23,597 bases of DNA from Candidatus Pacearchaeota archaeon (GCA_018304175.1 JAGVWT010000006.1:1-23597); one strand, 5' to 3'. Shown: positions 1 to 11,981, numbered from the stretch's first letter. The notes: a model not told the origin generated them from the sequence alone. Numbers and translations: made by a program.

Positions 1-2705
1 CGCCTCATTGCCGCGTGCATGTAAGGGCTTGCAAATAGTCCTTGCGTATTTGAAAAACCTATAAACCTGCAAATAACCCCTGCACAATTATGTGGGGCCA
101 TGCAAACCCCTAACTGCCCAATTAAATCATCTTTTTTTCTAACGTTGTAAAAAGGTTCCATCTCATAGAATCTTACAAGCAAAGAATCAATAAAATTGCA
201 AACCCTAATAAAAACATCATCAGCTTTTTCATCTCCCGACTCTGGGCATGATGGAAGAATAACATCATGAGGCTTCAGTTCAAGAATTTGTTCTTTATCC
301 AAAAGTTTTTTTCCCAAATAATCTTTTTCATAACCAAGTTCCATCAACCTTTCAATACTTACTGAAATTTCTTTCGGTTTAAAATGAGTTATTGGAAGTT
401 CTGTTGCATCAAACCTAATCGTCCCGTCTTTATTTACCTGTAAATTATACATCGCACGCAAAATTCCTTTTGCTAAATGTTCTATCTTATGTTCTGCAGA
501 AGAAGTTCCTTTAACACCTTTAATCAAGATTGGTACATCATTTTTTTTGATTCCAAGCTTCAAAAGTGTTTTTTCAAAATAGTGATTTATGTCTATGGTT
601 TTATTTGAATATTGAAATGATTTTTCATGTTCACTACATCTTTCAAAAAAACTTTTCCCACATTGTGGACAATAAAATTTTTTTCTTGTTCTGGAATTAC
701 ATTCTTCACAAACAGAGAATATTGTTTCTTTATTGCATTTTTCACAGTAAAAAATTGGAAAATCGCTTCTTATCTTCCCTATACTGCAAGCATCATTAAT
801 ACTCCTAAACCTTCCCCCTTCAGCACCGACAGGAAATAATATATTTGGGCTTCCAACAAGTTTTCTTAATTTTGCCTTCTCCGGCCTTCCCATTCTCGCC
901 CCAATAAAATCACCTGCCTTGTCTTTTATTTCAAATTCAGAAACAGAATTTATAATTTCGAGAACTTTTAAATTCTGTTTGAAGTCATTTATATTTATTT
1001 TATCCTTTAATTCAAAACTTTCTTTCTCAAGTAAATTAAAATCAATTCCTAAATTAACAAACAGCGCTTTACTCATTTCTTTTGTAAGGATAACATTTTC
1101 TATTGTAACATCATGCTCAACACCCAGAAGTTCAAGCGCTCTCTTTCCTTTAGCAAATTTTTCTTGTGAGTGTTTATCGTATGGGAAAATTATTTTTCCG
1201 TCCGCCCTCGAATGCAACAACCATTCAATCAAACCAAGTAAATCCTCTTTGGAAATTTGTGTCCAATAAAAAATAAATTTTGGATGAAGAGGTATTTTGT
1301 GATTTTTACTTAAATCAACAGCTTCTTCAAAAGAAAGATTAAAATGATCGGTTTTTAAATCCAGATTCTTTTCCATTAATTCTAATTTCCACCATTCTTC
1401 AACATAACCTGGTTTTATCAACTCATGATTTCTGTTACTTAAATCTCCTAACGAAAATAAAATATCACCTAAATAGATTATTTCTTCAACATCTGGATAA
1501 AATTTTTTCGCCTCTTCTTTGCTTTTTATTTTTTTTACACTTCCATTAAAAAGTTTTACAGTTGGCCCTTCTAAATCGTCGCTGGAAGTAATCACACAGC
1601 CTTTAGTTGGCTTTTCTATTTTTAACTGAGTTCCTGTTGCTATAAATGAGTCTGTTATCGCCATTGTTGCAGGATGCATAGAAGTAGCACTGAAACCACT
1701 AACTCTGCTCCTACCATACCTAAATCTAAATGCTCCTGACGCAGAAGGATGTCCGAAAACAGGTCTGCCGGCAACTAAATCATTAAGATAAGTTGGACCT
1801 GCATTCTTGTCACTTCCAGAATCTCTTCTTTTGTGTATTTCAATATATTCATCTAAAAAATCCCAAGAGCTTATTTTAAATCCTTTTTTCTTTAAGTCGG
1901 AAATATATCTTTTTATTTTCTGGGCTTTTTGTGCAACCCCCTCTGCAAGAGTCAAACAAAATCCACCACGTATAGAATTCGTCTCAATTCTAGCAAGATT
2001 TTTGTAATTCGATACTTCTGATTTCTCGGTAGCGTCCCCATTTATCTGAACAGGAATATTCTTAGCCAAGAATAAAGCTTCCTCTTCCGTCGGCATATAC
2101 TGTAAATTAGTTACTCTTTCATGATAATTAACCAACTCGATATAGCTTCTTTTTATTTCCTCTTCTGTAGGATCGTATTTTTCAAAACCGAACATTTCTC
2201 TCAAATAATCAACTATTAATAATGAAAATGCGGCCCCTGTTCCCCCTGCACTTCGTATTGGTCCTGAAAAATAGGGTGAGAAATATCCTTTTCCTTCTTT
2301 TGTTTTTAAAATTTTTATTCTAGTAAATCCCTCGATAGGGCTTGACACAACACCAAGTGTACTGTATGCAAATCCGACTCTAACACCTGCTTCAATCGCT
2401 TCAACGACGTTTGAAAATTTACAGAATTTTTCTTTCGCAACTTCCTCTGCAATCTTCATTGAAACCCCAGGATCTAATTTACCATATTCTTTTTCTAATG
2501 CAAGAATCCTTGCAGCAATCCCAGAGCCAGAAATTTGAGGGTAAACAGAAGCTATTAATCCTTCAACTTTTTCAGCAAGGCTTCTTGCCAAAGGTATTTC
2601 AACTTTATCAGCAGGATCATAACCTTTTTTTCTTGCTTCATTCATAATATCATAAACGTGCTTCACGTTTTTTTCCAAATCCTGAAAATATTCTTGAGTG
2701 TTCAT
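1..2705 (-). CDS. polC: DNA polymerase D large subunit DP2 (partial, runs off the left edge)
   Basis: Not in the ORF track. Translated by hand from ATG at 2705: MNTQEYFQDLEKNV...GPIRSAGGT...AGRPVFGHP...GFSNTQGLFASPYMHAAMR; frame spot-checked at start, about 1800 and window edge. These are conserved DP2 motifs. Confidence 0.97.
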   Translation of the reverse strand, partial: MNTQEYFQDLEKNVKHVYDIMNEARKKGYDPADKVEIPLARSLAEKVEGLIASVYPQISGSGIAARILALEKEYGKLDPGVSMKIAEEVAKEKFCKFSNVVEAIEAGVRVGFAYSTLGVVSSPIEGFTRIKILKTKEGKGYFSPYFSGPIRSAGGTGAAFSLLIVDYLREMFGFEKYDPTEEEIKRSYIELVNYHERVTNLQYMPTEEEALFLAKNIPVQINGDATEKSEVSNYKNLARIETNSIRGGFCLTLAEGVAQKAQKIKRYISDLKKKGFKISSWDFLDEYIEIHKRRDSGSDKNAGPTYLNDLVAGRPVFGHPSASGAFRFRYGRSRVSGFSATSMHPATMAITDSFIATGTQLKIEKPTKGCVITSSDDLEGPTVKLFNGSVKKIKSKEEAKKFYPDVEEIIYLGDILFSLGDLSNRNHELIKPGYVEEWWKLELMEKNLDLKTDHFNLSFEEAVDLSKNHKIPLHPKFIFYWTQISKEDLLGLIEWLLHSRADGKIIFPYDKHSQEKFAKGKRALELLGVEHDVTIENVILTKEMSKALFVNLGIDFNLLEKESFELKDKININDFKQNLKVLEIINSVSEFEIKDKAGDFIGARMGRPEKAKLRKLVGSPNILFPVGAEGGRFRSINDACSIGKIRSDFPIFYCEKCNKETIFSVCEECNSRTRKKFYCPQCGKSFFERCSEHEKSFQYSNKTIDINHYFEKTLLKLGIKKNDVPILIKGVKGTSSAEHKIEHLAKGILRAMYNLQVNKDGTIRFDATELPITHFKPKEISVSIERLMELGYEKDYLGKKLLDKEQILELKPHDVILPSCPESGDEKADDVFIRVCNFIDSLLVRFYEMEPFYNVRKKDDLIGQLGVCMAPHNCAGVICRFIGFSNTQGLFASPYMHAAMR

Positions 2706-3290
2706 TTAAACTAAATATTGTCTAACTTCTTTAAGATTATTTATTCTCGATATATTCTGATGGCCATTATAACTATTATTCCAAGGTTTATTCAAAAGAA
2801 AAACTTTAATTCCCCTACTAGCGCAATCGAGAGCAAAATCCATATGATCATCAATTAAAATTTCACACTCATTTTTCAAACATAAATCTGACTTATTTGT
2901 TCCAAAACCGTAGCCGTGTTTTGATACATAATTAGAAAAGTGTACTTCTGAAAAATAACCGGGAAAAAATTTTTCCAGCCATGAAGTGGTCTTCGTCCTA
3001 ATTAAATCTGGTCTGCCAGTTATTGCTACAAATTTATTTTCTTTTGCTAATAACCTGACGGCATCAACAGAGTCTTCAATAGGAGACACATCATCAAAAA
3101 ACATAGAGTCATAATAATCCAATAATCTATGGACTACCTCTTCCCTATCAACTTTCCAAATTTTCTCCAAATTAAAACAAAAAACATTTTCCACAGTTAA
3201 GTTCGTGCCATAATTGTGATTATGAAAATCCATCAAAGGACCCATGTTTTCCGCTAAAACACCATCAATATCAATCCCTATTTTTTTCAT
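2706..3290 (-). CDS. HAD-superfamily 5'(3')-deoxyribonucleotidase-like protein (NT5C-like)
   Basis: N-terminal HAD motif I IGIDIDGVLA, ITGR motif II, ILIDDH motif IV, C-terminal PWN; stop codon directly abuts the DP2 ATG. Confidence 0.8.
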   Translation of the reverse strand: MKKIGIDIDGVLAENMGPLMDFHNHNYGTNLTVENVFCFNLEKIWKVDREEVVHRLLDYYDSMFFDDVSPIEDSVDAVRLLAKENKFVAITGRPDLIRTKTTSWLEKFFPGYFSEVHFSNYVSKHGYGFGTNKSDLCLKNECEILIDDHMDFALDCASRGIKVFLLNKPWNNSYNGHQNISRINNLKEVRQYLV

Positions 3291-3305
3291 TTCAGTTTTT
3301 AATTT

Positions 3306-4934
3306 TTAATTATAAATCTCCAAAACATCTTTCTTATTTTCTTTTTTCTTCAAGCTGTCTTCTTCATCATAAAAATCTAAGATTTTTACCTGCCCTGTCT
3401 TCAAATTAAACATTGGAACTTTACAATAATCTGATTCAAACCCCATTTTTTCCTGATAAGGCATTAACTCTTCCCAACAGGTTGTTGATAAAAGTAAGAT
3501 ATTTTTGTAATATAAAACCCCCCCTTTATGAGTATGTCCCGAGACAAAAATATCCGGAACTACTTTAATTATTAAATCATTATCTGTAAATGGTAATGTT
3601 TGAACGAAAGTATTATGTGTAGGACCTAAATGCCTGTTTTTTAGCAAGTAAGCCATTATTTTTTCGGGGTTTAATGGGGAGCCTCGAGTCATTAAACTTG
3701 GGATTGTATTTACATAATAAGGATATGAAAAACCATGATAGGTAAGGATATTAAATCCAGGAAAATCTCCTCTTTCCCCAATATTTATCAGAGATGGATT
3801 TGAAGCATGAATCACATTCTCCATTTCATATAGTGGTTTTGCATATTTCTCGTCGAGAATTGGTTGCGGCTCCATCAACCTGACGCAATCGTGATTTCCC
3901 GGAATGATTATTATCTTTATGTCTTTTCTTATTTTCCCTAGCAATTCAGCGGCTTTTTCGTATTGTCTTTTTAAATCAACTATGGCCAACTCTTTTTCCT
4001 GATTTGGATAAACACCAACTCCTGCAACTAAATCACCAACAATAAAAAGATATTTTATTTTTTTTGCTTCTTCAAATTCAGGTGTTTCCAAATTTAGATA
4101 ATCTATGAATTTCAAAAGATTCTTTTCAAGAAAAAGTCTGCTTCCCACATGCACATCACTGATAAAAACAACTGATTCATCTATGGGGGATTTTTTCCTT
4201 ATAGGAAGAGAGGCGTCGGGAAAAATAACATCATTTGCAAAAAAAATCTCTTTGTTGCTGAAACCTTTAAATCCGATTACAGAATCCAAAGAAATATCTT
4301 CCGCTTTAGAGTAAGTATCTTCTTTATTTTTGTTTATCAAGACTTTTAATCTTCCAGTGATATCTTCCACTTCCAAAATTATGTTTCCATTTTTTGTAAT
4401 ATTTTTACCATAAACCAAACCTATAATTGAAGCAGCTTGCCTCATGCCAGACAGCTTACTTATAGAAACTAAATTTTCCAATTCGTTTTTATCCTGTAAG
4501 AATTTCTTCATTTCTATAACTCTATTTTTGAAATAATTTGTAAAGTCATCAACTTCAATCTTTTTATTATGTGGGGAAAAAAAAGGGTATACTTTAACTT
4601 TGTCATCAATCTTCATTTTCTCCTTATCTAGCTCAGAAATTTCTATATTTTCTCTGGTATTTTCATTTGAAATTTCAATACTCAACCCTAGTTGTATCTT
4701 CAATTTTTTTATTGTTTGGTTTTCTTGAGGAAAGGATGATAAAAACTTCTTCGCAACTTTTTCGTTTTCGAAAAAAGTTTTAGTTATAAACCTCTGACCT
4801 GTTTGTTCTTTAATTCTTTCTATAATAAGTTTCACAGACTCAAAGTCGTTTGCATCATTAAAAATCGTAAGGAGACCCTTATCTATTAAAATTCCTTTCC
4901 CAATGCAAAAATTTGAGATTTCTTCAGATTTCAT
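3306..4934 (-). CDS. polB: DNA polymerase D small subunit DP1 (3'-5' exonuclease)
   Basis: OB-fold segment (IIGLVYGK...ILEVEDITG) plus calcineurin-like motifs SDVHVG, GDLVAGVGVYPNQ, PGNHD, YHG, SGHTH; between cdc6 and DP2. Confidence 0.95.
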   Translation of the reverse strand: MKSEEISNFCIGKGILIDKGLLTIFNDANDFESVKLIIERIKEQTGQRFITKTFFENEKVAKKFLSSFPQENQTIKKLKIQLGLSIEISNENTRENIEISELDKEKMKIDDKVKVYPFFSPHNKKIEVDDFTNYFKNRVIEMKKFLQDKNELENLVSISKLSGMRQAASIIGLVYGKNITKNGNIILEVEDITGRLKVLINKNKEDTYSKAEDISLDSVIGFKGFSNKEIFFANDVIFPDASLPIRKKSPIDESVVFISDVHVGSRLFLEKNLLKFIDYLNLETPEFEEAKKIKYLFIVGDLVAGVGVYPNQEKELAIVDLKRQYEKAAELLGKIRKDIKIIIIPGNHDCVRLMEPQPILDEKYAKPLYEMENVIHASNPSLINIGERGDFPGFNILTYHGFSYPYYVNTIPSLMTRGSPLNPEKIMAYLLKNRHLGPTHNTFVQTLPFTDNDLIIKVVPDIFVSGHTHKGGVLYYKNILLLSTTCWEELMPYQEKMGFESDYCKVPMFNLKTGQVKILDFYDEEDSLKKKENKKDVLEIYN

Positions 4935-4949
4935 TTTAAATTATAATTT

Positions 4950-6191
4950 TTATTTTTTAAAATTCAAAGAATCTTCTATTAGTTTCTTTGCTTTATTAAT
5001 GAGGCTTTCAGTTATAGTAAGTTTAATCTCACTCATTCGTCCTCCACGACCTTTCGAGATAATTTTGACATCAATTATTCCCAACATCATAAATTCATGT
5101 ATGATATCATTAACTCTCCTCGAAGTAAGGACTTCAAAATTATTTTGGCTACAAAGCTTTTGGTAATGTCCATAAACTTCACCAGTGAAAACTGTTCCCT
5201 CCCTATTGTTATTCAACAAAGATTTCTGTGGTTTGTTTTTCCTTTCGGCTAAATTGATTATGGAGTAGAGGACGATTTGGAATTGTTTCGGGCTTGTACT
5301 TATAGTTTCCAATATTTTATCACGTTCAATCTTACTGTTTGCTTCATCAATATGTTTTATTGTAATTTTTTTGGAACCGTCCCTTTCAGATAATTCCCCG
5401 GCAATTCTTAACAAGTCCAATGCACGCCTAGCATCACCATGTTCTCTCGCTGCAAATCCCGCACATTTTTCAATAACACCTTCTTGCATAACGCCCTGTT
5501 TAAAAACCTCTTTAGACCTCATTTTCAAAATTTCCCTAAGCTGGACTGCATTATAAGGGGGAAAAACTATCTCTTCCTCTGACAAAGAACTTTTAACCCT
5601 AGGGTCTATATTATCAAGAAAAGTTAAATCATTGCTTATCCCAACAACGCTTAATCTTGTTTTTGAAAGCTCTGAATTGAGTCTTGTTAGGTTATACAAA
5701 AAATTATCAGATATTTTCTTGACTGTTTGATCTATTTCATCTAAGATTAACACAACCAGTTGTTTTTCAGAATCAATCAGTTCTATGAATTTGTTATAAA
5801 CTGACTCTGTAGGTAAACCTGTCGCAGGAATATTTCCTCCAAGCTTTTTTATCAACTCAGCTAAAATTCTGTACTCTGTATCAGAAACTTTTTTCAATTT
5901 GCAGTTGACATATTCTATCCTCAATTTAAAATCAGACCCTTCCTTTACACGATTTATTAAATTTTTTTGTATGTATTGTATTGAAAGAGTTTTTCCTGTT
6001 CCTGTTTTTCCATAAAGGAATAAATTACTTGGTTTTTCGCCCCTAAGAACTGGCGCCAATATAGAAGCTATTTGTTTAATCTCATTATCCCTGTACAGAA
6101 TTTCCTTTGGTACATAGTTCGTCTGAAGAATTGATTTGTCTCTAAATATTACATTTTTACTAAAAGATTCGAAGATACTGTCTAATTCCAT
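4950..6191 (-). CDS. cdc6: Orc1/Cdc6 replication initiator
   Basis: Walker A GKTGTGKT, Walker B LDEID, sensor-2 HGDARRALDLL, C-terminal winged helix (KGRGGR); GGAGG-type RBS just upstream. Confidence 0.97.
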   Translation of the reverse strand: MELDSIFESFSKNVIFRDKSILQTNYVPKEILYRDNEIKQIASILAPVLRGEKPSNLFLYGKTGTGKTLSIQYIQKNLINRVKEGSDFKLRIEYVNCKLKKVSDTEYRILAELIKKLGGNIPATGLPTESVYNKFIELIDSEKQLVVLILDEIDQTVKKISDNFLYNLTRLNSELSKTRLSVVGISNDLTFLDNIDPRVKSSLSEEEIVFPPYNAVQLREILKMRSKEVFKQGVMQEGVIEKCAGFAAREHGDARRALDLLRIAGELSERDGSKKITIKHIDEANSKIERDKILETISTSPKQFQIVLYSIINLAERKNKPQKSLLNNNREGTVFTGEVYGHYQKLCSQNNFEVLTSRRVNDIIHEFMMLGIIDVKIISKGRGGRMSEIKLTITESLINKAKKLIEDSLNFKK

Positions 6192-6310
6192 TTTGAATAT
6201 AAATTTTCCTCCTTTTTATTTGAAATTTTTTCTCGCTTTTCACCTCAACTTTGTTTTTAAACATTTTACTTATTAAATTTTAGTTGAGTTGAAGTTTTTA
6301 CTTAAACTAT

Positions 6311-6331
6311 CACCTCTATTTCCTATAGAGG
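6311..6331 (-). promoter_or_regulatory. ORB-like box (degenerate)
   Basis: Minus strand CCTCTATAGGAAATAGAGGTG, 14/21 identical to the box at 8660-8680; also an 8-bp inverted repeat (6312-6319/6325-6332). Confidence 0.5.
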
Positions 6332-6415
6332 TACATAAAATAAAAAACTTTCAGACGGTTTAGAATGAATTAAGTATAAAAAAGGTTATAACTACTAACA
6401 AAGAATAAACCTGTT

Positions 6416-6429
6416 TTTCCTATGGAAAT
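6416..6429 (-). promoter_or_regulatory. mini-ORB-like box
   Basis: Minus strand ATTTCCATAGGAAA with a TTTCC-N3-GGAAA dyad; identical over 14 bp to 8659-8672; no G-string. Confidence 0.6.
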
Positions 6430-6479
6430 TTGTTTTTGTGAAACTTGTTTTTGTAGACCTACAGAAAACTAGTTTGTGG

Positions 6480-6544
6480 AAAACTGTTTTTATGGGTTAG
6501 TAGAAGAGGTGTAGGTCAGTAAAAACTGTTTTTATGGGTTAGTA
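6480..6544 (+). repeat. 23-bp perfect direct repeat, 2 copies, 42-bp period
   Basis: AAAACTGTTTTTATGGGTTAGTA at 6480-6502 and 6522-6544. Confidence 0.95.
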
Positions 6545-6671
6545 TTTTTGTTATAAGATATTTTAAAATGTTTTTAGATATAAATACTACAACCTAGAAA
6601 GATACTCATATATAATATATAAAATACAAAAATATATTTAGATTGGGTGTTATGATATATAAAAAATATAA

Positions 6672-6720
6672 TATATAGTATAGTATATAGTATAGTATAG
6701 TATATAGTATAGTATATATA
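6672..6720 (+). repeat. TATAG/TATATAG tandem array in the AT-rich core (candidate DNA-unwinding element)
   Basis: tatatag-tatag-tatatag-tatag-tatag-tatatag-tatag-tatatata. Confidence 0.85.
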
Positions 6721-6772
6721 ATTTTATAAATAAATAATAAATATAAAAAATTTGTGATTTTCTTTTTAAATC

Positions 6773-6793
6773 TTTCTACAAGAAACAAAGGAG
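6773..6793 (+). promoter_or_regulatory. ORB-like box (degenerate)
   Basis: TTTCTACAAGAAACAAAGGAG, 16/21 identical to 8660-8680; opposite orientation to the boxes at 6311 and 6416. Confidence 0.55.
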
Positions 6794-6895
6794 AGAGAAT
6801 ATAACCGGAAAGAGAGAGTATAAAGGGAATTAACTCTTTCTTTCAAACCACTTAAATTTTTACTTTATGTCTCTTTTTTAATGTATATTCATTTT

Positions 6896-6913
6896 TACAG
6901 AAAAATTTATAAG
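6896..6913 (+). promoter_or_regulatory. BRE-TATA promoter of the PRC-barrel gene
   Basis: TACAGAAAAATTTATAAG (purine-rich BRE plus TTTATAA); AGGTGA RBS at 6943-6948 before ATG 6959. Confidence 0.7.
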
Positions 6914-6958
6914 CAAGATATCTCTAAAATTAAATAAAAACAAGGTGATTTTTACAAA

Positions 6959-7216
6959 ATGCCAGAAAGGAACCCATATACATCGCTTGCAGGGAAAATG
7001 ATTGTAACAAAAGAAGGTAAAAGAATGGGGTTTGTTAAAGACCTTACTTTTGAAACAGGTTCTGGAGAAGTGATAAATATTATTGTTAAAGATTCAACAC
7101 TCTACACAAAGAACCTTAATTTGGAAAAAACAAACTCAAACGAGATGCTTATTCCCTACAATTCAATAATTGCTGTTGGCGATTTTATAGTTGTTTCAGA
7201 GGAAGATTTAATATAA
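6959..7216 (+). CDS. Small PRC-barrel domain protein (CdpB-like size)
   Basis: GKMIVTKEGKRMGFVKDLTFETGSGEVINIIV...LIPYNSIIAVGDFIVV matches the PRC-barrel pattern; good RBS. Confidence 0.8.
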   Translation: MPERNPYTSLAGKMIVTKEGKRMGFVKDLTFETGSGEVINIIVKDSTLYTKNLNLEKTNSNEMLIPYNSIIAVGDFIVVSEEDLI

Positions 7217-7235
7217 AGGGAGAATTCTTATCAAA

Positions 7236-7418
7236 ATGGTTGAAAATGACGCAAGACTTAATGTAAGGTATTATGAATTAATAGGTGAATTAATAGGTGA
7301 ATTAATAGGTGAATTAATAGGTGAATTAATAGGTAAATCAACAAAAGAAAGTGCTTCTTCTTCCACCCAGAAACAACTAATAAACAAAAATTTAAAAATG
7401 CCTTTTCTTAATAAGTAA
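7236..7418 (+). CDS. Possible 60-aa protein containing (ELIG)x5
   Basis: Fills the gap between two genes with operon-like spacing (stop 1 nt before next ATG); no recognisable family. Confidence 0.3.
   Translation: MVENDARLNVRYYELIGELIGELIGELIGELIGKSTKESASSSTQKQLINKNLKMPFLNK
7275..7334 (+). repeat. 12-bp perfect tandem repeat x5
   Basis: GAATTAATAGGT at 7275, 7287, 7299, 7311 and 7323. Confidence 0.98.
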
Positions 7419-7419
7419 A

Positions 7420-7830
7420 ATGAAAGTAATAGGTTTCAACTTTAACAAAATCAGTGTTGAGAAGAAGTCAGATAAGTTTGAGAATATGAAGATACATAAC
7501 GATATCTCTATAGCCAGTGTTAAGCAAATAAAGTCGCAAAGCCCATTTCAGACAAAAGACGACATTTTAGAGCTGGGTTTTAATTATGACTTGACTTACT
7601 CTCCAGACATTGCAAAAATTTCCCTTTCTGGAACAATGATTCTCATGGTTGAACAAAAAGTGACAAAAGAGTTTATGAAAAGGTGGAAAAATAAAAAAGT
7701 CCCTGAAGAATACAAAATATTGATATTTAATGTTATACTTAAAAAATCAAACCTTCGCGCAGTCCAGCTTGAAGACGAGTTGAACATTCCAATACATATC
7801 CCTCTTCCTACTGCAAGGGATAGCAAATAA
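7420..7830 (+). CDS. Hypothetical protein, possible SecB-like fold
   Basis: 136 aa, beta-rich N-terminal part, then a helix ending in NIPIHIPLP, which recalls the SecB C-terminal P-rich motif. CDS is solid; fold is tentative. Confidence 0.55.
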   Translation: MKVIGFNFNKISVEKKSDKFENMKIHNDISIASVKQIKSQSPFQTKDDILELGFNYDLTYSPDIAKISLSGTMILMVEQKVTKEFMKRWKNKKVPEEYKILIFNVILKKSNLRAVQLEDELNIPIHIPLPTARDSK

Positions 7831-8132: not shown

Positions 8133-8411
8133 ATGAAAATATCTGACAAAAAAAGAGATAAGATAGCAGAACAAATCCTTGCCTTGCTTTTTTCTTCACA
8201 TAAGCCAATGTTTACATCACATGTTGCAGAGGAGATTGCGAGGGACGAAGAGTTCATAAAGAAAATTCTTGAAGATTTAAAAAAAAGAAAACTTGTGATT
8301 GAAATAAAAAAAAATCCAAAGGGAGTTGAATATATCAAAAGGTCTAGATGGAGGTTAAGTGACTCTGCCTACAAAATATATAAGCAACACCAAGCCAACA
8401 AATTTTTATAG
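8133..8411 (+). CDS. Small winged-helix DNA-binding protein
   Basis: Likely ATG at 8133 (ORF track starts at TTG 8115); QILALLF...FTSHVAEEIARDEEFIKKILEDLKKRKLV followed by a wing hairpin; TTTATATA at 8104-8111. Confidence 0.75.
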   Translation: MKISDKKRDKIAEQILALLFSSHKPMFTSHVAEEIARDEEFIKKILEDLKKRKLVIEIKKNPKGVEYIKRSRWRLSDSAYKIYKQHQANKFL

Positions 8412-8436
8412 TCTTTTAATCTGATAAAAAACGAAA

Positions 8437-9069
8437 ATGGATCAAATCAAAGACGCTTTTAAAAAAGTCAAAGAAGACATTGATTTTCTTATGTTAGAAT
8501 TGTCCTCAATAAACTCAGAATTATCTAGTATTATGGGAGAAATAAGTCAAATAAAGGATTTTTTAGACTCAACACAAAACTCTAAAAATCCAGCATCTCC
8601 AACACATATTCCAACACATCGACAGTCTTTTAAGCCTTTTAAAACCAAAAATATAGGGATTTCCATAGGAAACGAAGGGGTTCCAACAGACAGACAGACA
8701 AACCAACAGACAGACAGACACATAAAAAATACCAATATAATTGACTCTGCCGCAGAGATTTTAGACTCTCTGGACTCTGTAAAAAAGGAAATAAGACTAA
8801 AATTCAAACGGCTTACAGATCAAGAATTTCTCATTTTCTCGACACTATACAAATTAGATGAAGAAATAGGCTTTGTCGACTACAAAACGATTTCAACCGA
8901 GCTTGGGTTAACAGAAAGTTCGATAAGAGACTACATCGGCAAACTCATAAAAAAAGGAATTCCTATTGAAAAACAAAGGATAAATAACAAGAACATAAGA
9001 CTCTCTATAGCACAAAACCTCAAGAAAGTCACAACTCTTCAAACAATCCTCCAATTAAGGGATTTATAA
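8437..9069 (+). CDS. Coiled-coil + low-complexity linker + C-terminal winged-HTH protein (paralogue A)
   Basis: N-terminal heptad region; C-terminal LTDQEFLIFSTL...YKTISTELGLTESSIRDYIGKLIKKGIPI resembles a BirA/HTH_11-type wHTH. Confidence 0.85.
   Translation: MDQIKDAFKKVKEDIDFLMLELSSINSELSSIMGEISQIKDFLDSTQNSKNPASPTHIPTHRQSFKPFKTKNIGISIGNEGVPTDRQTNQQTDRHIKNTNIIDSAAEILDSLDSVKKEIRLKFKRLTDQEFLIFSTLYKLDEEIGFVDYKTISTELGLTESSIRDYIGKLIKKGIPIEKQRINNKNIRLSIAQNLKKVTTLQTILQLRDL
8660..8680 (+). promoter_or_regulatory. Full ORB-like box with G-string, inside a CDS
   Basis: TTTCCATAGGAAACGAAGGGG: TTCC-N3-GGAA dyad plus GGGG string, the canonical archaeal ORB architecture. Confidence 0.6.
8683..8720 (+). 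repeat. 18-bp direct repeat x2, 20-bp period, with internal (CAGA)n
   Basis: CCAACAGACAGACAGACA at 8683-8700 and 8703-8720. Confidence 0.95.
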
Positions 9070-9222
9070 CGAGATTCTTACAAATTAACCGTTTAACCGA
9101 ATAAAGTTTTCACTATATCTCATTTTGTTTAAAAGCCAAAATTTCTCATTTTTAAGCTTTAAAAAAGGCTTTTTTATTATTCACTCACTTTAGTTTTCTA
9201 GCATTCATTTTTAATCCATTTT

Positions 9223-9825
9223 TTAATCTTTTCTTTTATTTCTAACTCTCACTTTTGGCTTTTTCAGGAGTTTATTTTTGATTTCTTCAGGTATAAACAT
9301 CCTCTTTTTACCATTTTTCTCTGCTATTTCCTCTAAAATATCTTCACTTTTCTGTTTTATAGAGTTTATCTGCCCCCTTATAGTTGACTTTTCTTTACCT
9401 AATAAAGAAGCAATGTCCTCATAACTTAATTTTAAGTCTGTGTTTATTAAAGTCCAGAGTATCAATCTTTCATTTGATGAAAAATCATTAAAATTTGGTG
9501 TTTGAACAGCTGTTTGAACAGCTGTTTGAACAGCATGAACACCTGTTTGTTTACCAAATATCTGTTCACCTGTTTTAAACAACCTCTTTTTTGGAAGATT
9601 GTTTGTCAGCGATAGATGGTCTTTTATTGATTCCAACTCTTCTTCTATCGTCGATAAAACATCTTTTATTTCAGAGATCTCATTTTTATGAGACTCTTTC
9701 TCAGAATTCAGGTGTTTAATCCAATTTCCCATATCATTAATGTCTTTTTTCACTAAATCAAAACTATTTTTAATTTCATCCCTAACTTTCTTTACTTCTT
9801 TTTTTCCAGAAAACGGCCAAAACAT
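9223..9825 (-). CDS. Coiled-coil + linker + C-terminal winged-HTH protein (paralogue B)
   Basis: DEIKNSFDLVKKDI aligns with DQIKDAFKKVKEDI of 8437..9069; FSSNERLILWTL...SYEDIASLLGKEKSTIRGQINSIK aligns with its HTH. Confidence 0.85.
   Translation of the reverse strand: MFWPFSGKKEVKKVRDEIKNSFDLVKKDINDMGNWIKHLNSEKESHKNEISEIKDVLSTIEEELESIKDHLSLTNNLPKKRLFKTGEQIFGKQTGVHAVQTAVQTAVQTPNFNDFSSNERLILWTLINTDLKLSYEDIASLLGKEKSTIRGQINSIKQKSEDILEEIAEKNGKKRMFIPEEIKNKLLKKPKVRVRNKRKD
9499..9534 (+). repeat. 12-bp perfect tandem repeat x3 generating AACAGCTGTT palindromes
   Basis: TGTTTGAACAGC at 9499, 9511 and 9523; encodes (AVQT)x3 on the minus strand. Confidence 0.97.
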
Positions 9826-9957
9826 AGTGTTTTTTATGAAACGTTATTTAAAAATCTTTTGTCTTCGACGCTAAAAAATCATTTTTAATAGTAAAAAGCC
9901 GTTAAAAAATACCTTAAAAATTAAGCCAAATTTCCTGATTTTTTGCTAAAAAATGAC

Positions 9958-9972
9958 TTTGAACAGCTGTTT
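9958..9972. promoter_or_regulatory. Intergenic copy of the intragenic repeat motif (candidate operator)
   Basis: TTTGAACAGCTGTTT is identical to 9501-9515 and lies upstream of the 9223..9825 gene. Confidence 0.5.
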
Positions 9973-10170
9973 AAAACTGATTTAAACAACTTAAACACCT
10001 TTAAAACGTCGATAAATTGTAAAACTGCATAAATTTCTGACTTTGAATTAAGGGTAGATAAGTGAATGTTTTCCAAAAATTGGAAAATTTTTTACATTTT
10101 TCTTAAAATTACTCCTCAAAAATTATTATTAATGTTTAATAATAAACCTAAATTCCCTTTCCCCTTAAAA

Positions 10171-10602
10171 ATGGCGTCTGAAAAAAAACAAATCACAGAA
10201 TTGAAGCATGAACTTGTAAAACAGTCTGTTGTAGATGAAATTCAGGAACAGCAAATAAACAAACTGAAAAAAGAGTTGGATAAGGAGAAAGAAAAAACGA
10301 GGTTCGCCGTAGATCTTTCTCTTAAATCAATAAAGGTTTTTGAACAGGAGGCTAGGAAACAAGTTATGACTGCAGTGATGGCTGCGTTTGGTTTCCTACT
10401 TGCATTAGTCTGGCGAGACACAATCGTAAACTATGCTTCACATATCGTTGATTTTTTTAAGTTCCCAGCCCCGGAAATTTTAGGAATCCTTTACACAACA
10501 ATCCTCACAACTTTTATAGCAGTTGTGGGTATAGTTGTTTTAAGTAGATGGACCCCAAAAAAAGAAGAAATCCTCCGTGAAATCCAAGAACAAAAATATT
10601 AA
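10171..10602 (+). CDS. Membrane protein, DUF5654-like, with N-terminal coiled coil
   Basis: Likely ATG at 10171 (MASEKKQ); AAFGFLLALVWRDTI motif plus a second hydrophobic helix. Confidence 0.7.
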   Translation: MASEKKQITELKHELVKQSVVDEIQEQQINKLKKELDKEKEKTRFAVDLSLKSIKVFEQEARKQVMTAVMAAFGFLLALVWRDTIVNYASHIVDFFKFPAPEILGILYTTILTTFIAVVGIVVLSRWTPKKEEILREIQEQKY

Positions 10603-10665
10603 CTAAGGTAAGCTAAGTGCACAAAGATTTACAAAATTTAAAAACTAATTTTTTCTTGGATTTTT

Positions 10666-10992
10666 ATGATAGAAATATTTCCTAGAACAAAAAAGGATTA
10701 TGAAGACCTGAAAGGCTTTGAAACAGAAATTTTAGATTTAGATTTTTTAAGAGAAAGTCCTGATAGAACTAGTGATTATGGGATTTTTGTTTATAGAGGA
10801 GGGATAATTTGTGCTAATTCAGGAAGTCAATAATATGACATAACAGAAAAAATGCAATCTGAAAATATTTTGGCATTTGTTAATGCAAGGTTTTCTCCAA
10901 TTGATAGTGGTCATTCTATTACAGTTAAACTTTTCTTTGCAGGAGATAGATATTACGGGCTTCCTGTCCGAAGAAATACAAGACTTATTTGA
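10666..10992 (+). pseudogene. 108-codon ORF interrupted by one in-frame TAA
   Basis: MIEIFPRTKK...NSGSQ*(10831-10833)YDITEKMQ...YYGLPVRRNTRLI*; both halves are in the same frame. Confidence 0.55.
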
Positions 10993-11029
10993 ATTAATTC
11001 CTATAAATTACCTTCAACCTTCTAAAAAG

Positions 11030-11100
11030 CCGAAATATTTATTAACTTAGGGCACCCTAAAAGAACGTGAACCTACCCAGGTAAGCCCTAAGTTCACGTT
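11030..11100 (+). promoter_or_regulatory. BRE-TATA promoter followed by nested inverted repeats
   Basis: CCGAAATATTTATTAA; TTAGGG-CA-CCCTAA (11047-11060); AACTTAGGGC/GCCCTAAGTT (11044-11053/11085-11094); AACGTGAAC/GTTCACGTT (11064-11072/11092-11100). Confidence 0.65.
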
Positions 11101-11112
11101 TAAAGAGGGAAA

Positions 11113-11223
11113 ATGACAAGGGGAACAGCGCGCGATAAGGCATTGGAAAAAATTGTCCAGCATCTTGAAGAAATTTTGCAAATTCCTGGAGATGATCCAA
11201 GATACAAGGAGTTTCTAAAATGA
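11113..11223 (+). CDS. 36-aa ORF coupled to the recombinase
   Basis: MTRGTARDKALEKIVQHLEEILQIPGDDPRYKEFLK; purine-rich AGAGGG upstream; its TGA overlaps the recombinase ATG (ATGA). Confidence 0.55.
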   Translation: MTRGTARDKALEKIVQHLEEILQIPGDDPRYKEFLK

Positions 11224-11981
11224 CAAAACCACTCGCAGCAATTTACATTCGTGTTTCGACAGAAGATCAAGCGAAACAGGGAATCTCGCTTTCAGCCCAA
11301 GAAGAAGCGCTGAAAAACTACGCCTCTGCATTGGGTTACGAAGTTTTGAAAATTTACAAAGATGAAGGAAAATCCGCAAAAGACATCAAAGGTCGGCAGG
11401 CAATGAAAGAAATGCTTGAAGACGCAAAAGTGAGAAAATTTCAGGCGATTTTCACATACAAGCTTGATAGATTTTCGAGAAGTTTAAAGGATTTGATTGA
11501 AACAATCGCGTTATTGAAAGATTGGGGAATTGATTTTGTTTCCCTTCAGGATAAAATTGAAACAACATCTGCGTCAGGAAAGCTAATGTTTCACATTATT
11601 TCTGCTTTCGCTGAATTTGAAAGAAACGTAACAGGAGAAAGAACTAAATTTTCAATGGACAAAAAAGCCCGCGACGGAGGTTTGGTTTCTCGTGCACCTT
11701 TAGGATACAAAATCGAGGACAAAAAACTAATTCCAAAAGAAGATTCCTACATGGTTCAGGAAATTTTCCAGGATTTTTTAAACAACAACACAAGTCTAAC
11801 ACAATTGGCAAAAAAATACAATTTAAGTGTCAATGGTTTGAAAAAAGTTCTAACAAATCAAACATATCTCGGGAAAATAAAATTCGACGGTCAAACTCAC
11901 CCAGGAACGCACCAACCTCTTCTTTCCCCAACACTTTTCAATCATGTTCAGAATAAGTTGGAGAAATTAAGGATTAAATAA
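11220..11981 (+). CDS. Serine recombinase (catalytic domain + recombinase domain, no zinc ribbon)
   Basis: YIRVST with catalytic Ser, DEGKSA, KLDRFSRS, AFAEFER, APLGY; 253 aa. Confidence 0.93.
   Translation: MTKPLAAIYIRVSTEDQAKQGISLSAQEEALKNYASALGYEVLKIYKDEGKSAKDIKGRQAMKEMLEDAKVRKFQAIFTYKLDRFSRSLKDLIETIALLKDWGIDFVSLQDKIETTSASGKLMFHIISAFAEFERNVTGERTKFSMDKKARDGGLVSRAPLGYKIEDKKLIPKEDSYMVQEIFQDFLNNNTSLTQLAKKYNLSVNGLKKVLTNQTYLGKIKFDGQTHPGTHQPLLSPTLFNHVQNKLEKLRIK

What the first reader, a model, noticed from the sequence alone, without database searches (positions are those of the whole stretch)
8133..9972. Candidate undescribed origin-linked module: three wHTH genes, two of them convergent coiled-coil paralogues carrying their own DNA sites
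Seen: 8437..9069 (+) and 9223..9825 (-) share architecture and sequence at both ends (DQIKDAFKKVKEDI / DEIKNSFDLVKKDI; ExLIxxTL...YxxIxxxLGxxxSxIRxxI), joined by variable linkers. Both linkers coincide with DNA-level features (ORB plus CAGA repeats in A; palindromic 12-mers in B). A small wHTH gene precedes A, and all lie 1.2-2.9 kb from oriC. No ParA/SegA ATPase is in the window. Inference: a heterodimeric coiled-coil DNA-bridging system for origin organisation, segregation or initiation control, with centromere-like sites embedded in its genes, by analogy to RacA, MatP or SegB and to lambda O, whose gene contains its origin.
Basis: partly seen in the sequence, partly recalled or inferred. 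Interest (0 to 1): 0.8.

Follow-up and report, generated by a model that had tools for sequence, protein, structure and literature searches.

The report
Origin box hidden inside regulator genes
Beside the replication origin of tiny DPANN archaea lies a conserved trio of DNA-binding-protein genes, and two of them carry protein-binding DNA sites inside their own coding sequence, including a conserved box for the replication initiator, which points to an undescribed layer of origin control.

Summary
Genes A (8437-9069,+) and B (9223-9825,-) are paralogues. Each has an N-terminal long helix, a disordered linker and a winged helix. A small winged-helix gene S (8133-8411) precedes A.

The linkers are not simply variable. 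The DNA that encodes them is the most conserved DNA in the locus.
- A carries one canonical origin recognition box (ORB) in all 121 loci examined across class Nanoarchaeia. Its synonymous positions are invariant and it uses rare codons. Extra copies are read in another frame.
- Strand-specific, phased CA-hexamer repeats flank the ORB.
- B carries 3-5 ACA-SS-TGT palindromes, which recur in its non-coding upstream region.

The trio stays 1-15 kb from cdc6/oriC in every genome where both could be located, whereas most other window genes do not. The canonical origin (inverted ORBs around an extremely AT-rich stretch) is next to cdc6. The trio has no such stretch.

Best reading: a self-encoded accessory docking site for Orc1/Cdc6 and winged-helix proteins beside oriC that regulates itself and initiation. 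Binding and function are inferred, not shown. The heterodimer, bridging and segregation ideas remain untested. I rate it a new variant of known kinds (Pyrococcus dp1 ORBs, Haloarcula oriC2D, lambda O).

The parts
4950..6191 (-). cdc6/orc1 initiator gene (context)
   Evidence: Pfam Cdc6_lid, Cdc6_C and AAA. It diverges from S/A in every same-order locus where both are on one contig.
6192..6958 (.). Canonical oriC: ORB-like boxes at 6308-6331(-), 6405-6428(-) and 6775-6793(+) around an AT-rich core at about 6600-6760
   Evidence: Pattern and PWM scans. In 48 of 51 related loci the most AT-rich 80 nt of the locus lies here.
8133..8411 (+). S, a small winged-helix gene, probably in an operon with A (25-nt gap)
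   Evidence: Weak TrmB/HTH matches. Found in 34 of 41 relatives and upstream of A in 78 of 80 loci. The start codon was set from orthologues.
8437..9069 (+). A: long helix (residues 2-43), disordered linker (44-100), MarR-like winged helix (101-209)
   Evidence: Pfam HTH_36, AlphaFold model, Foldseek MarR-type hits, and more than 2300 relatives.
8569..8624 (+). Upstream array of sense-strand CA-hexamers (YCRACA) in the linker-coding DNA of A
   Evidence: Density is 17.4 per kb in A linkers against 0.4-1.4 per kb elsewhere.
8660..8683 (+). Canonical ORB (dyad plus G-string) read in frame as S-I-G-N-E-G-V
   Evidence: 39.8 bits, the best ORB in the 544-kb genome; the next best scores 12.3. Present in A in 121 of 121 loci. 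Synonymous sites are invariant.
8683..8722 (+). Downstream CA-hexamers and the (ACAG)n repeat, starting 2 nt after the G-string
9096..9104 (+). Conserved 9-mer in a short inverted repeat just after the A stop codon
   Evidence: Present in 58% of A-B spacers against about 3% expected. It also occurs upstream of S in some loci.
9223..9825 (-). B: long helix (residues 6-75), disordered linker (76-111), winged helix (117-187), basic tail
9499..9547 (-). Three ACA-SS-TGT palindromes (9505, 9517, 9538) encoded as the xVQT repeat
   Evidence: Density is 6.05 per kb in B genes against 0.0-0.07 per kb elsewhere. This is the only such cluster in the genome.
9958..9975 (.). The same palindrome in the non-coding spacer between B and the divergent DUF5654 gene
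   Evidence: At least one copy lies within 400 nt upstream of B in about three quarters of loci, at 3.11 per kb.

Best explanation
S, A and B form a core, origin-proximal module of Nanoarchaeia (DPANN).

Shown:
- The DNA encoding the disordered linkers of A and B is under purifying selection as DNA.
- A carries one canonical ORB flanked by phased, strand-specific CA-hexamer repeats.
- B carries an array of ACA-SS-TGT palindromes that recurs in its upstream spacer.

Inferred:
- Orc1/Cdc6 docks on the intragenic ORB.
- The module's own dimeric winged-helix proteins occupy the neighbouring repeats: A or S on the direct repeats, B on the palindromes.
- The sites lie in transcribed DNA, so occupancy and transcription would oppose each other. 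This would make the module self-regulating and sensitive to initiator occupancy.

Proposed function: an accessory initiator-binding locus a few kb from the true origin that tunes Orc1/Cdc6 availability or the timing of initiation. It would act as a single-box, protein-assisted counterpart of Haloarcula oriC2D or E. coli datA, rather than as a centromere or a second origin.
For: 1. The box in A is a genuine ORB.
- A matrix built from the A boxes finds, outside A, almost only the inverted boxes beside cdc6.
- It matches the published Pyrococcus ORB1 apart from a shorter spacer.

2. Selection acts on the DNA.
- Pairwise codon identity is 1.0 over A residues 76-85, with rare codons used 21/21. At invariant residues elsewhere in the gene it sits at background, 0.2-0.6.
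- Second copies, and one sole copy, are read in another frame.
- In B the third base of the x codon stays T while the residue changes among A, G, P and R.

3. Breadth: the ORB lies in A, in sense orientation, in 21/21, 80/80 and 20/20 loci, the last set from about ten other families.

4. The ORB in A is the strongest in the genome: 39.8 bits against 12.3 or less elsewhere.

5. The palindromes occur in non-coding DNA upstream of B at roughly 50-80 times the flanking background. Clusters of either repeat type occur nowhere else in the genome, apart from one borderline pair on another contig.

6. Linkage to the origin.
- The trio lies 1-14 kb from cdc6 in all 21 same-order genomes with both on one contig, and 4.5-14.5 kb away in three other-order genomes.
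- Within 20 kb of cdc6, only DP2, DP1, PRC, orf7420, S, A and B are retained broadly. DUF5654 and the recombinase persist in one same-order genome. The other 16 window genes are not retained.

7. Precedents exist for accessory ORB clusters that bind Cdc6 or restrain an origin.
Against: - No binding data exist for any of the proteins.
- One ORB is a poor titrator compared with the 11 boxes of oriC2D.
- The hexamer repeats could partly be slippage products tolerated in a disordered Q/T/N/P-rich linker. In other orders the repeat after the ORB is a different short unit.
- No winged-helix residue in S, A or B covaries with the CCAACA versus TCGACA repeat type.
- The reading frame of the ORB is almost always the same, so a peptide role for S-x-G-N-x-G-V is not excluded.
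- Linkage to oriC could be inherited gene order rather than a functional requirement.
Confidence: 0.4

Rival explanations
1. Ordinary autoregulated transcription factors with an initiator input. A and B repress (or activate) their own and neighbouring promoters through their repeats. Orc1/Cdc6 bound at the intragenic ORB acts only as a transcriptional roadblock that couples A expression to the cell cycle, with no feedback on replication.
For: A has a MarR-like fold. The palindromes lie in the divergent B/DUF5654 promoter region. The ORB sits 195-500 nt inside the gene, where it could block elongation. Neither repeat type occurs in oriC.
Against: This does not explain why the strongest ORB in the genome is kept here, or why the module stays near oriC across the class. 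Operators inside coding DNA are unusual for MarR-type regulators.
Confidence: 0.2
2. A and B form coiled-coil (hetero)dimers that bridge or anchor origin-proximal DNA through centromere-like sites inside their genes, for origin organisation or segregation (RacA, MatP or ParB-like).
For: Both have long N-terminal helices and share an N-terminal motif unique to the pair. They carry arrays of sites near the origin. Seven of the genome's 12 ten-base palindromes lie on this 23.6-kb contig.
Against: No partition ATPase is linked. The flanks of 80 related loci show no excess of extra palindromes. Sites are essentially confined to the two genes and one spacer. Heterodimerisation was not testable with these tools.
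Confidence: 0.15
3. A gene-embedded second origin, or the distal half of a bipartite origin (lambda O/ori-lambda or B. subtilis-type). A would be a lineage-specific co-initiator binding iterons around an ORB.
For: An ORB with phased direct repeats sits in the linker-coding DNA of a DNA-binding protein. Some loci carry two ORBs, or an inverted second ORB, in A. About ten loci have an ORB of opposite orientation upstream of B. A gives weak HTH_36 and DnaD_N matches.
Against: The trio contains no AT-rich unwinding element: the minimum GC over 80 nt is 17-25%, against a median of 3.7% at the cdc6-adjacent origin. Most loci have a single ORB. No relatives were found on viral contigs or plasmids. 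The canonical origin lies only 2-15 kb away.
Confidence: 0.1
4. No DNA-level function. The motifs are conserved peptides or low-complexity repeats, and the DNA similarity is a by-product of codon bias and slippage.
For: The frame of the ORB is nearly always the same. C/A-only codons encode the polar residues typical of disordered linkers. The repeat units differ between orders.
Against: Rare codons are fixed 21/21 while other invariant residues are saturated at synonymous sites. The box is identical in kind to the oriC ORBs. Copies are read in other frames. The palindromes also occur in non-coding DNA. Eleven-nt units are read in three frames.
Confidence: 0.04

Closest known systems
ORB3/mini-ORB cluster inside the dp1 gene of Pyrococcus and Thermococcus (Matsunaga et al. 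2007, PMC1904270)
   Same: Initiator boxes lie inside a protein-coding gene a few kb from oriC. They are conserved across an order and bound by Cdc6 in vivo, and their role is unresolved. This window also has the same dp2-dp1-cdc6-oriC gene order.
   Different: Here the box lies on the other side of oriC, in a winged-helix gene rather than dp1. It is usually single, is flanked by other repeats, and is conserved across a class. No significant ORB was found in dp1 of this genome.
oriC2D ORB-rich region of Haloarcula hispanica (Wu et al. 2014, PMC3936714) and E. coli datA
   Same: A separate set of initiator sites close to an origin that restrains it, probably by titrating the initiator. datA additionally needs an accessory DNA-binding protein (established knowledge).
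   Different: oriC2D has 11 ORBs in non-coding DNA. Here there is one ORB in coding DNA, with lineage-specific repeats in place of further ORBs.
Lambda O protein and ori-lambda; parS inside spo0J of B. subtilis (established knowledge, not tested here)
   Same: The cis site is embedded in the gene of a DNA-binding protein. In lambda it lies in the part that encodes the inter-domain linker.
   Different: Lambda's site is a complete origin with an AT-rich region, and the trio has none. It is not shown that A or B bind their own genes. No ParA or CTP-clamp features were found.
UBP/ucm of Sulfolobus origins (Dhanaraju et al. 2025, PMC12141716)
   Same: An accessory, non-initiator DNA-binding protein recognises a short motif beside ORBs and modulates origin function.
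   Different: The ucm lies inside the origin's unwinding region, and UBP is an abundant nucleoid protein with hundreds of sites. Here the repeats are absent from oriC and confined to the module.
MarR-type winged-helix regulators
   Same: The fold of A's C-terminal domain, and palindromic sites in a promoter region for B.
   Different: These proteins add a long N-terminal helix and a disordered linker. Their sites lie inside their own coding sequence. No MarR Pfam model reaches threshold.

Membership tests
Archaeal origin recognition box (ORB) | A TTCC..GGAA dyad followed by a G-string | tested here: met
   The box at 8660-8683 has both. It matches the published P. furiosus ORB1 apart from a spacer about 5 nt shorter.
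Archaeal origin recognition box (ORB) | The same motif occurs as inverted copies flanking an AT-rich element next to cdc6 | tested here: met
   The matrix built from the A boxes recovers inverted pairs beside cdc6 in most loci. The AT-rich minimum lies there in 48 of 51 loci.
Archaeal origin recognition box (ORB) | Bound by Orc1/Cdc6 | not testable with these tools
   Needs EMSA, footprinting or ChIP.
Canonical archaeal replication origin | Inverted ORBs flanking a duplex-unwinding element | tested here: not met
   Most loci have a single sense ORB in A. Minimum GC over 80 nt is 17-25% in the trio against a median of 3.7% at oriC.
Initiator-titration locus (datA / oriC2D type) | A cluster of many initiator boxes | tested here: not met
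   One ORB in most loci, two in a minority.
Pfam HTH_36 (PF13730) | Score above the gathering cut-off of 25 bits | tested here: met
   A scores 30.2 bits. B scores only 14.8 bits and does not meet it.
MarR family | Winged helix with flanking dimerisation helices, and the Pfam MarR model above cut-off | tested here: inconclusive
   Foldseek top hits are MarR-type proteins (E=1.8e-4, TM 0.3-0.45). No MarR model appears in Pfam, even at E<=1.
ParABS / SegAB partition systems | An adjacent Walker-type partition ATPase | tested here: not met
   None in the window. The two AAA_31 genes lie on other contigs.
Gene-embedded origin of the lambda O type | Repeats in the linker-coding DNA of the protein that binds them, plus an adjacent AT-rich region | tested here: inconclusive
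   The repeats lie in linker-coding DNA. Binding is untested, and no AT-rich region is present.

The most novel reading that the evidence does not exclude
The ORB-plus-repeat segment inside gene A is a working replication element of the cellular chromosome. It would be either the distal half of a bipartite origin or a loading or licensing site, with A as a lineage-specific co-initiator that binds iterons in its own gene. That would make it a lambda-O-like replicon module in which protein and site are encoded by the same DNA, fixed for the whole history of a DPANN class.
Probability: 0.15. Interest if true: 0.9.

Novelty: new variant of a known kind. Interest (0 to 1): 0.72.

Why it matters
Almost nothing is known about how DPANN archaea control replication. 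They have 0.5-1 Mb genomes, depend on hosts and are mostly uncultivated.

This locus offers a clean, conserved and directly testable handle:
- a single initiator box under dual coding constraint in more than 120 genomes, stronger than the origin's own boxes;
- candidate accessory proteins and their candidate sites encoded beside it.

If the inferred binding holds, it would be a compact example of origin-proximal initiator control by an intragenic site. It would also be a rare case in cells of a protein's gene carrying the cis sites of its own system. The locus is also a practical marker for locating origins in Nanoarchaeia MAGs. Finally, it is a warning for motif-based protein annotation, because the conserved S-x-G-N-x-G-V 'peptide motif' is largely a DNA motif.

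Tried and rejected
- Covariation test. I looked for residues in S, A or B that track the CCAACA versus TCGACA repeat type in 72 typed loci. Only the repeat-encoded residues themselves associate; the best other column has MI 0.29. The binder of the repeats therefore stays unidentified.
- Mobile-element origin. No relatives of A were found in IMG/VR viral contigs or PLSDB plasmids.
- RNA explanation. Rfam gives only one sub-threshold twister-P3 match (21.4 bits against 39.9), taken as chance.
- Curated families. NCBIfam has nothing significant for S, A, B or orf7420. The PDB sequence search gives only marginal HTH hits.
- S as a third paralogue of A. There is no detectable similarity.
- Second origin. 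Rejected as the main reading for lack of an AT-rich unwinding element.
- Wider regulon or centromere array. Clusters of either repeat type occur only at A and B, apart from one borderline pair on another contig. The flanks of related loci show no excess of palindromes.
- Not attempted. Whole-genome GC skew was skipped because cdc6 and A are at most 15 kb apart everywhere, below its resolution. A multimer prediction for A plus B was not available.

Full report
**What is in the window.** The window is a whole 23.6-kb contig of a 544-kb genome that is 88% complete. Related records are named Pacearchaeota, Woesearchaeota or Nanoarchaeota.
- Its left part reads dp2, a 5'-nucleotidase gene, dp1 and cdc6, all on the minus strand.
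- Next comes a 767-bp AT-rich spacer (6192-6958) with ORB-like boxes in inverted orientation around an AT-rich core.
- To the right lie a PRC-barrel gene, an uncharacterised gene (7420-7830), then S (8133-8411), A (8437-9069) and the convergent B (9223-9825).

**Checking the observation.**
- A and B are paralogues: 28% identity, E=1e-7, with similarity at both ends. Their shared N-terminal motif is found in no other of the genome's 1349 ORFs.
- AlphaFold models give A a helix (residues 2-43), a disordered stretch (44-100) and a winged-helix domain (101-209). B has a helix (6-75), a disordered stretch (76-111), a winged helix (117-187) and a basic tail.
- A's C-terminal domain resembles MarR-type regulators.

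**The linkers are conserved as DNA.**
- A belongs to a large family (2382 hits at 55-64% identity). In it the 'linker' holds a conserved peptide, and B behaves likewise.
- Codon alignments of 21 orthologue sets show why. Across A residues 76-85 every synonymous position is fixed, including rare codons: TCC 21/21 against a background of 5-11%, GGG 21/21, GAC 15/15.
- Invariant residues in the winged helix, by contrast, use codons at background diversity (pairwise codon identity 0.2-0.6). Synonymous sites are therefore saturated elsewhere in the gene.
- Some loci carry a second box read in another frame, and one distant locus reads its only box in that other frame.
- In B the repeat is SST-GTY-CAA-ACA. 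Thr is ACA in 18-20 of the sequences at each repeat position (19 of 21 at one) and Gln is always CAA. The x codon keeps T at its third base while the residue changes among Ala, Gly, Pro and Arg. This preserves an ACA-SS-TGT palindrome with a free centre.

**The box in A is a true ORB.**
- A weight matrix built only from the A boxes finds, outside A, almost exclusively the spacer next to cdc6. There it typically appears as inverted copies on either side of the AT-rich core.
- It resembles the experimentally bound P. furiosus ORB1, with a shorter gap before the G-string.
- In this genome the A box scores 39.8 bits. The next best site anywhere scores 12.3, and the origin's own boxes score 9-11.

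**Breadth.**
- A, B and S are each found in 33-34 of 41 relatives and in 10 of 10 high-quality genomes.
- In 80 further species-level loci, the sense ORB in A is present in 80 of 80, S lies upstream in 78, and B is convergent in 77. The misses for B are at contig ends.
- cdc6 is divergent about 1.3-2.3 kb upstream in all 53 loci whose flank reaches that far.
- At class level the A profile matches 122 of 301 genomes.
- Twenty loci from about ten other families, where A is only 27-36% identical, all keep a sense ORB at the same place in the gene.

**The other repeats.**
- Sense-strand CA-hexamers (YCRACA) occur at 17.4 per kb in the 280 nt around the ORB, against 0.4-1.4 per kb elsewhere and 0.2 per kb on the antisense strand. 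In oriC they occur at only 0.37 per kb.
- They form arrays on both sides of the ORB. Spacing is often 11 or 12 nt, and 11-nt units are read in all three frames. The first hexamer starts 2 nt after the G-string.
- Within a gene the copies are mostly of one type (CCAACA or TCGACA), which indicates concerted change. I found no covarying winged-helix residue.
- In other orders the repeat after the ORB is a different short C/A-rich unit. This part may co-evolve with a binder or may be partly slippage.
- The palindromes give the stronger case for binding sites: 6.05 per kb in B, 3.11 per kb in the 400 nt of non-coding DNA upstream of B, at most 0.07 per kb elsewhere and none in oriC.
- In the whole genome, clusters of either repeat type occur only at A and B, apart from one borderline pair on another contig.

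**Link to the origin.**
- In all 21 same-order genomes with both genes on one contig, the trio lies 1-14 kb from cdc6.
- In three genomes of other orders the distance is 4.5, 6.9 and 14.5 kb, in genomes of about 0.7-0.9 Mb.
- As a control, I searched 27 window genes against 40 kb around cdc6 in five genomes. Only dp2, dp1, PRC, orf7420, S, A and B were retained broadly, plus DUF5654 and the recombinase in one same-order genome. Sixteen other genes were not retained.
- The true origin remains the cdc6-adjacent spacer. It holds the most AT-rich 80 nt of the locus in 48 of 51 cases (median 3.7% GC), whereas the trio never drops below 10% and has medians of 17-25%.

**Interpretation.**
- Shown: the ORB is constrained as DNA, it is the same kind of box as the oriC ORBs, the palindromes also occur in non-coding DNA, and the module is linked to oriC.
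- Inferred: Orc1/Cdc6 binds the box, and the module's dimeric winged-helix proteins bind the repeats.
- I favour an accessory initiator-docking locus that regulates both itself and initiation. Precedents are the Cdc6-bound ORB cluster inside Pyrococcus dp1 and the origin-restraining oriC2D of Haloarcula. UBP/ucm is a precedent for accessory origin proteins.
- Against a simple titration model: there is usually only one box.
A purely peptide-level explanation is largely excluded.

**Novelty.** No curated family, solved structure or paper in the searched library describes these proteins or an intragenic ORB in DPANN. No relatives occur on viral contigs or plasmids. It is best filed as a new variant of known kinds: accessory ORB sites, and cis sites embedded in the gene of a DNA-binding protein.

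Noticed in passing
window 7274-7338: A perfect 12-nt tandem array (5.4 copies) sits in the roughly 200-nt spacer between the PRC-barrel gene and orf7420. Cdc6-to-S spacing in related loci suggests the two genes are usually closer together, so the array looks lineage-specific. It creates a spurious 60-aa ORF (7236-7418).
   Followed up: partly
window 3-7830 and L135-L144: The origin island dp2-(nt5c)-dp1-cdc6-oriC-PRC-orf7420 is conserved across orders of the class. The dp2-dp1-cdc6-oriC order is the same as in Thermococcales. In one genome (G197) the PRC-oriC-cdc6-dp1-dp2 block is inverted relative to A.
   Followed up: partly
window 7420-7830: orf7420 is a confidently folded protein with no family assignment and a strongly conserved acidic/proline C-terminal tail. 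Similar clusters occur in Aenigmatarchaeota and Methanobacteriota.
   Followed up: partly
window 9070-9222 and the A-B spacers of about 100 loci: The convergent A-B spacer is long (median about 230 nt). It holds a conserved short inverted repeat with the 9-mer at 9096-9104 just after the A stop, and that 9-mer is also seen upstream of S in several loci. It also holds 1-4 copies of an 8-mer (window 9183-9192), which partly overlaps B's basic tail codons. The 9-mer could be a site for S.
   Followed up: partly
L046, L048, L051, L056, L068, L071, L076, L084, L099, L106: About ten loci have an additional ORB roughly 100 nt upstream of B, in the opposite orientation to the box in A. L026, L027, L034 and several others have a second, inverted ORB-like box inside A. 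L022, L023 and L092 have two tandem boxes.
   Followed up: partly
window 12000, 15707, 19646: Three further copies of the 10-base palindrome lie on this contig outside the B locus. In total 7 of the genome's 12 copies are on 4% of its DNA, against about 1.6 copies expected genome-wide. No such excess was seen in the flanks of related loci.
   Followed up: partly
window 10066-11981: The DUF5654 membrane/coiled-coil gene and a small serine recombinase lie next to B. They are found in the same order beside B in a genome of another family (G034), with the recombinase 63% identical.
   Followed up: no
G197, G271, G285: Genomes of other orders carry a second, divergent cdc6 paralogue (31-34% identity) 100 kb or more from the main one. 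G000 shows only one.
   Followed up: no
A linkers of 101 loci: Positions 1 and 3 of the hexamer covary: CCA and TCG are common, while TCA and CCG are rarer than independence predicts. All copies in a gene tend to switch together.
   Followed up: partly
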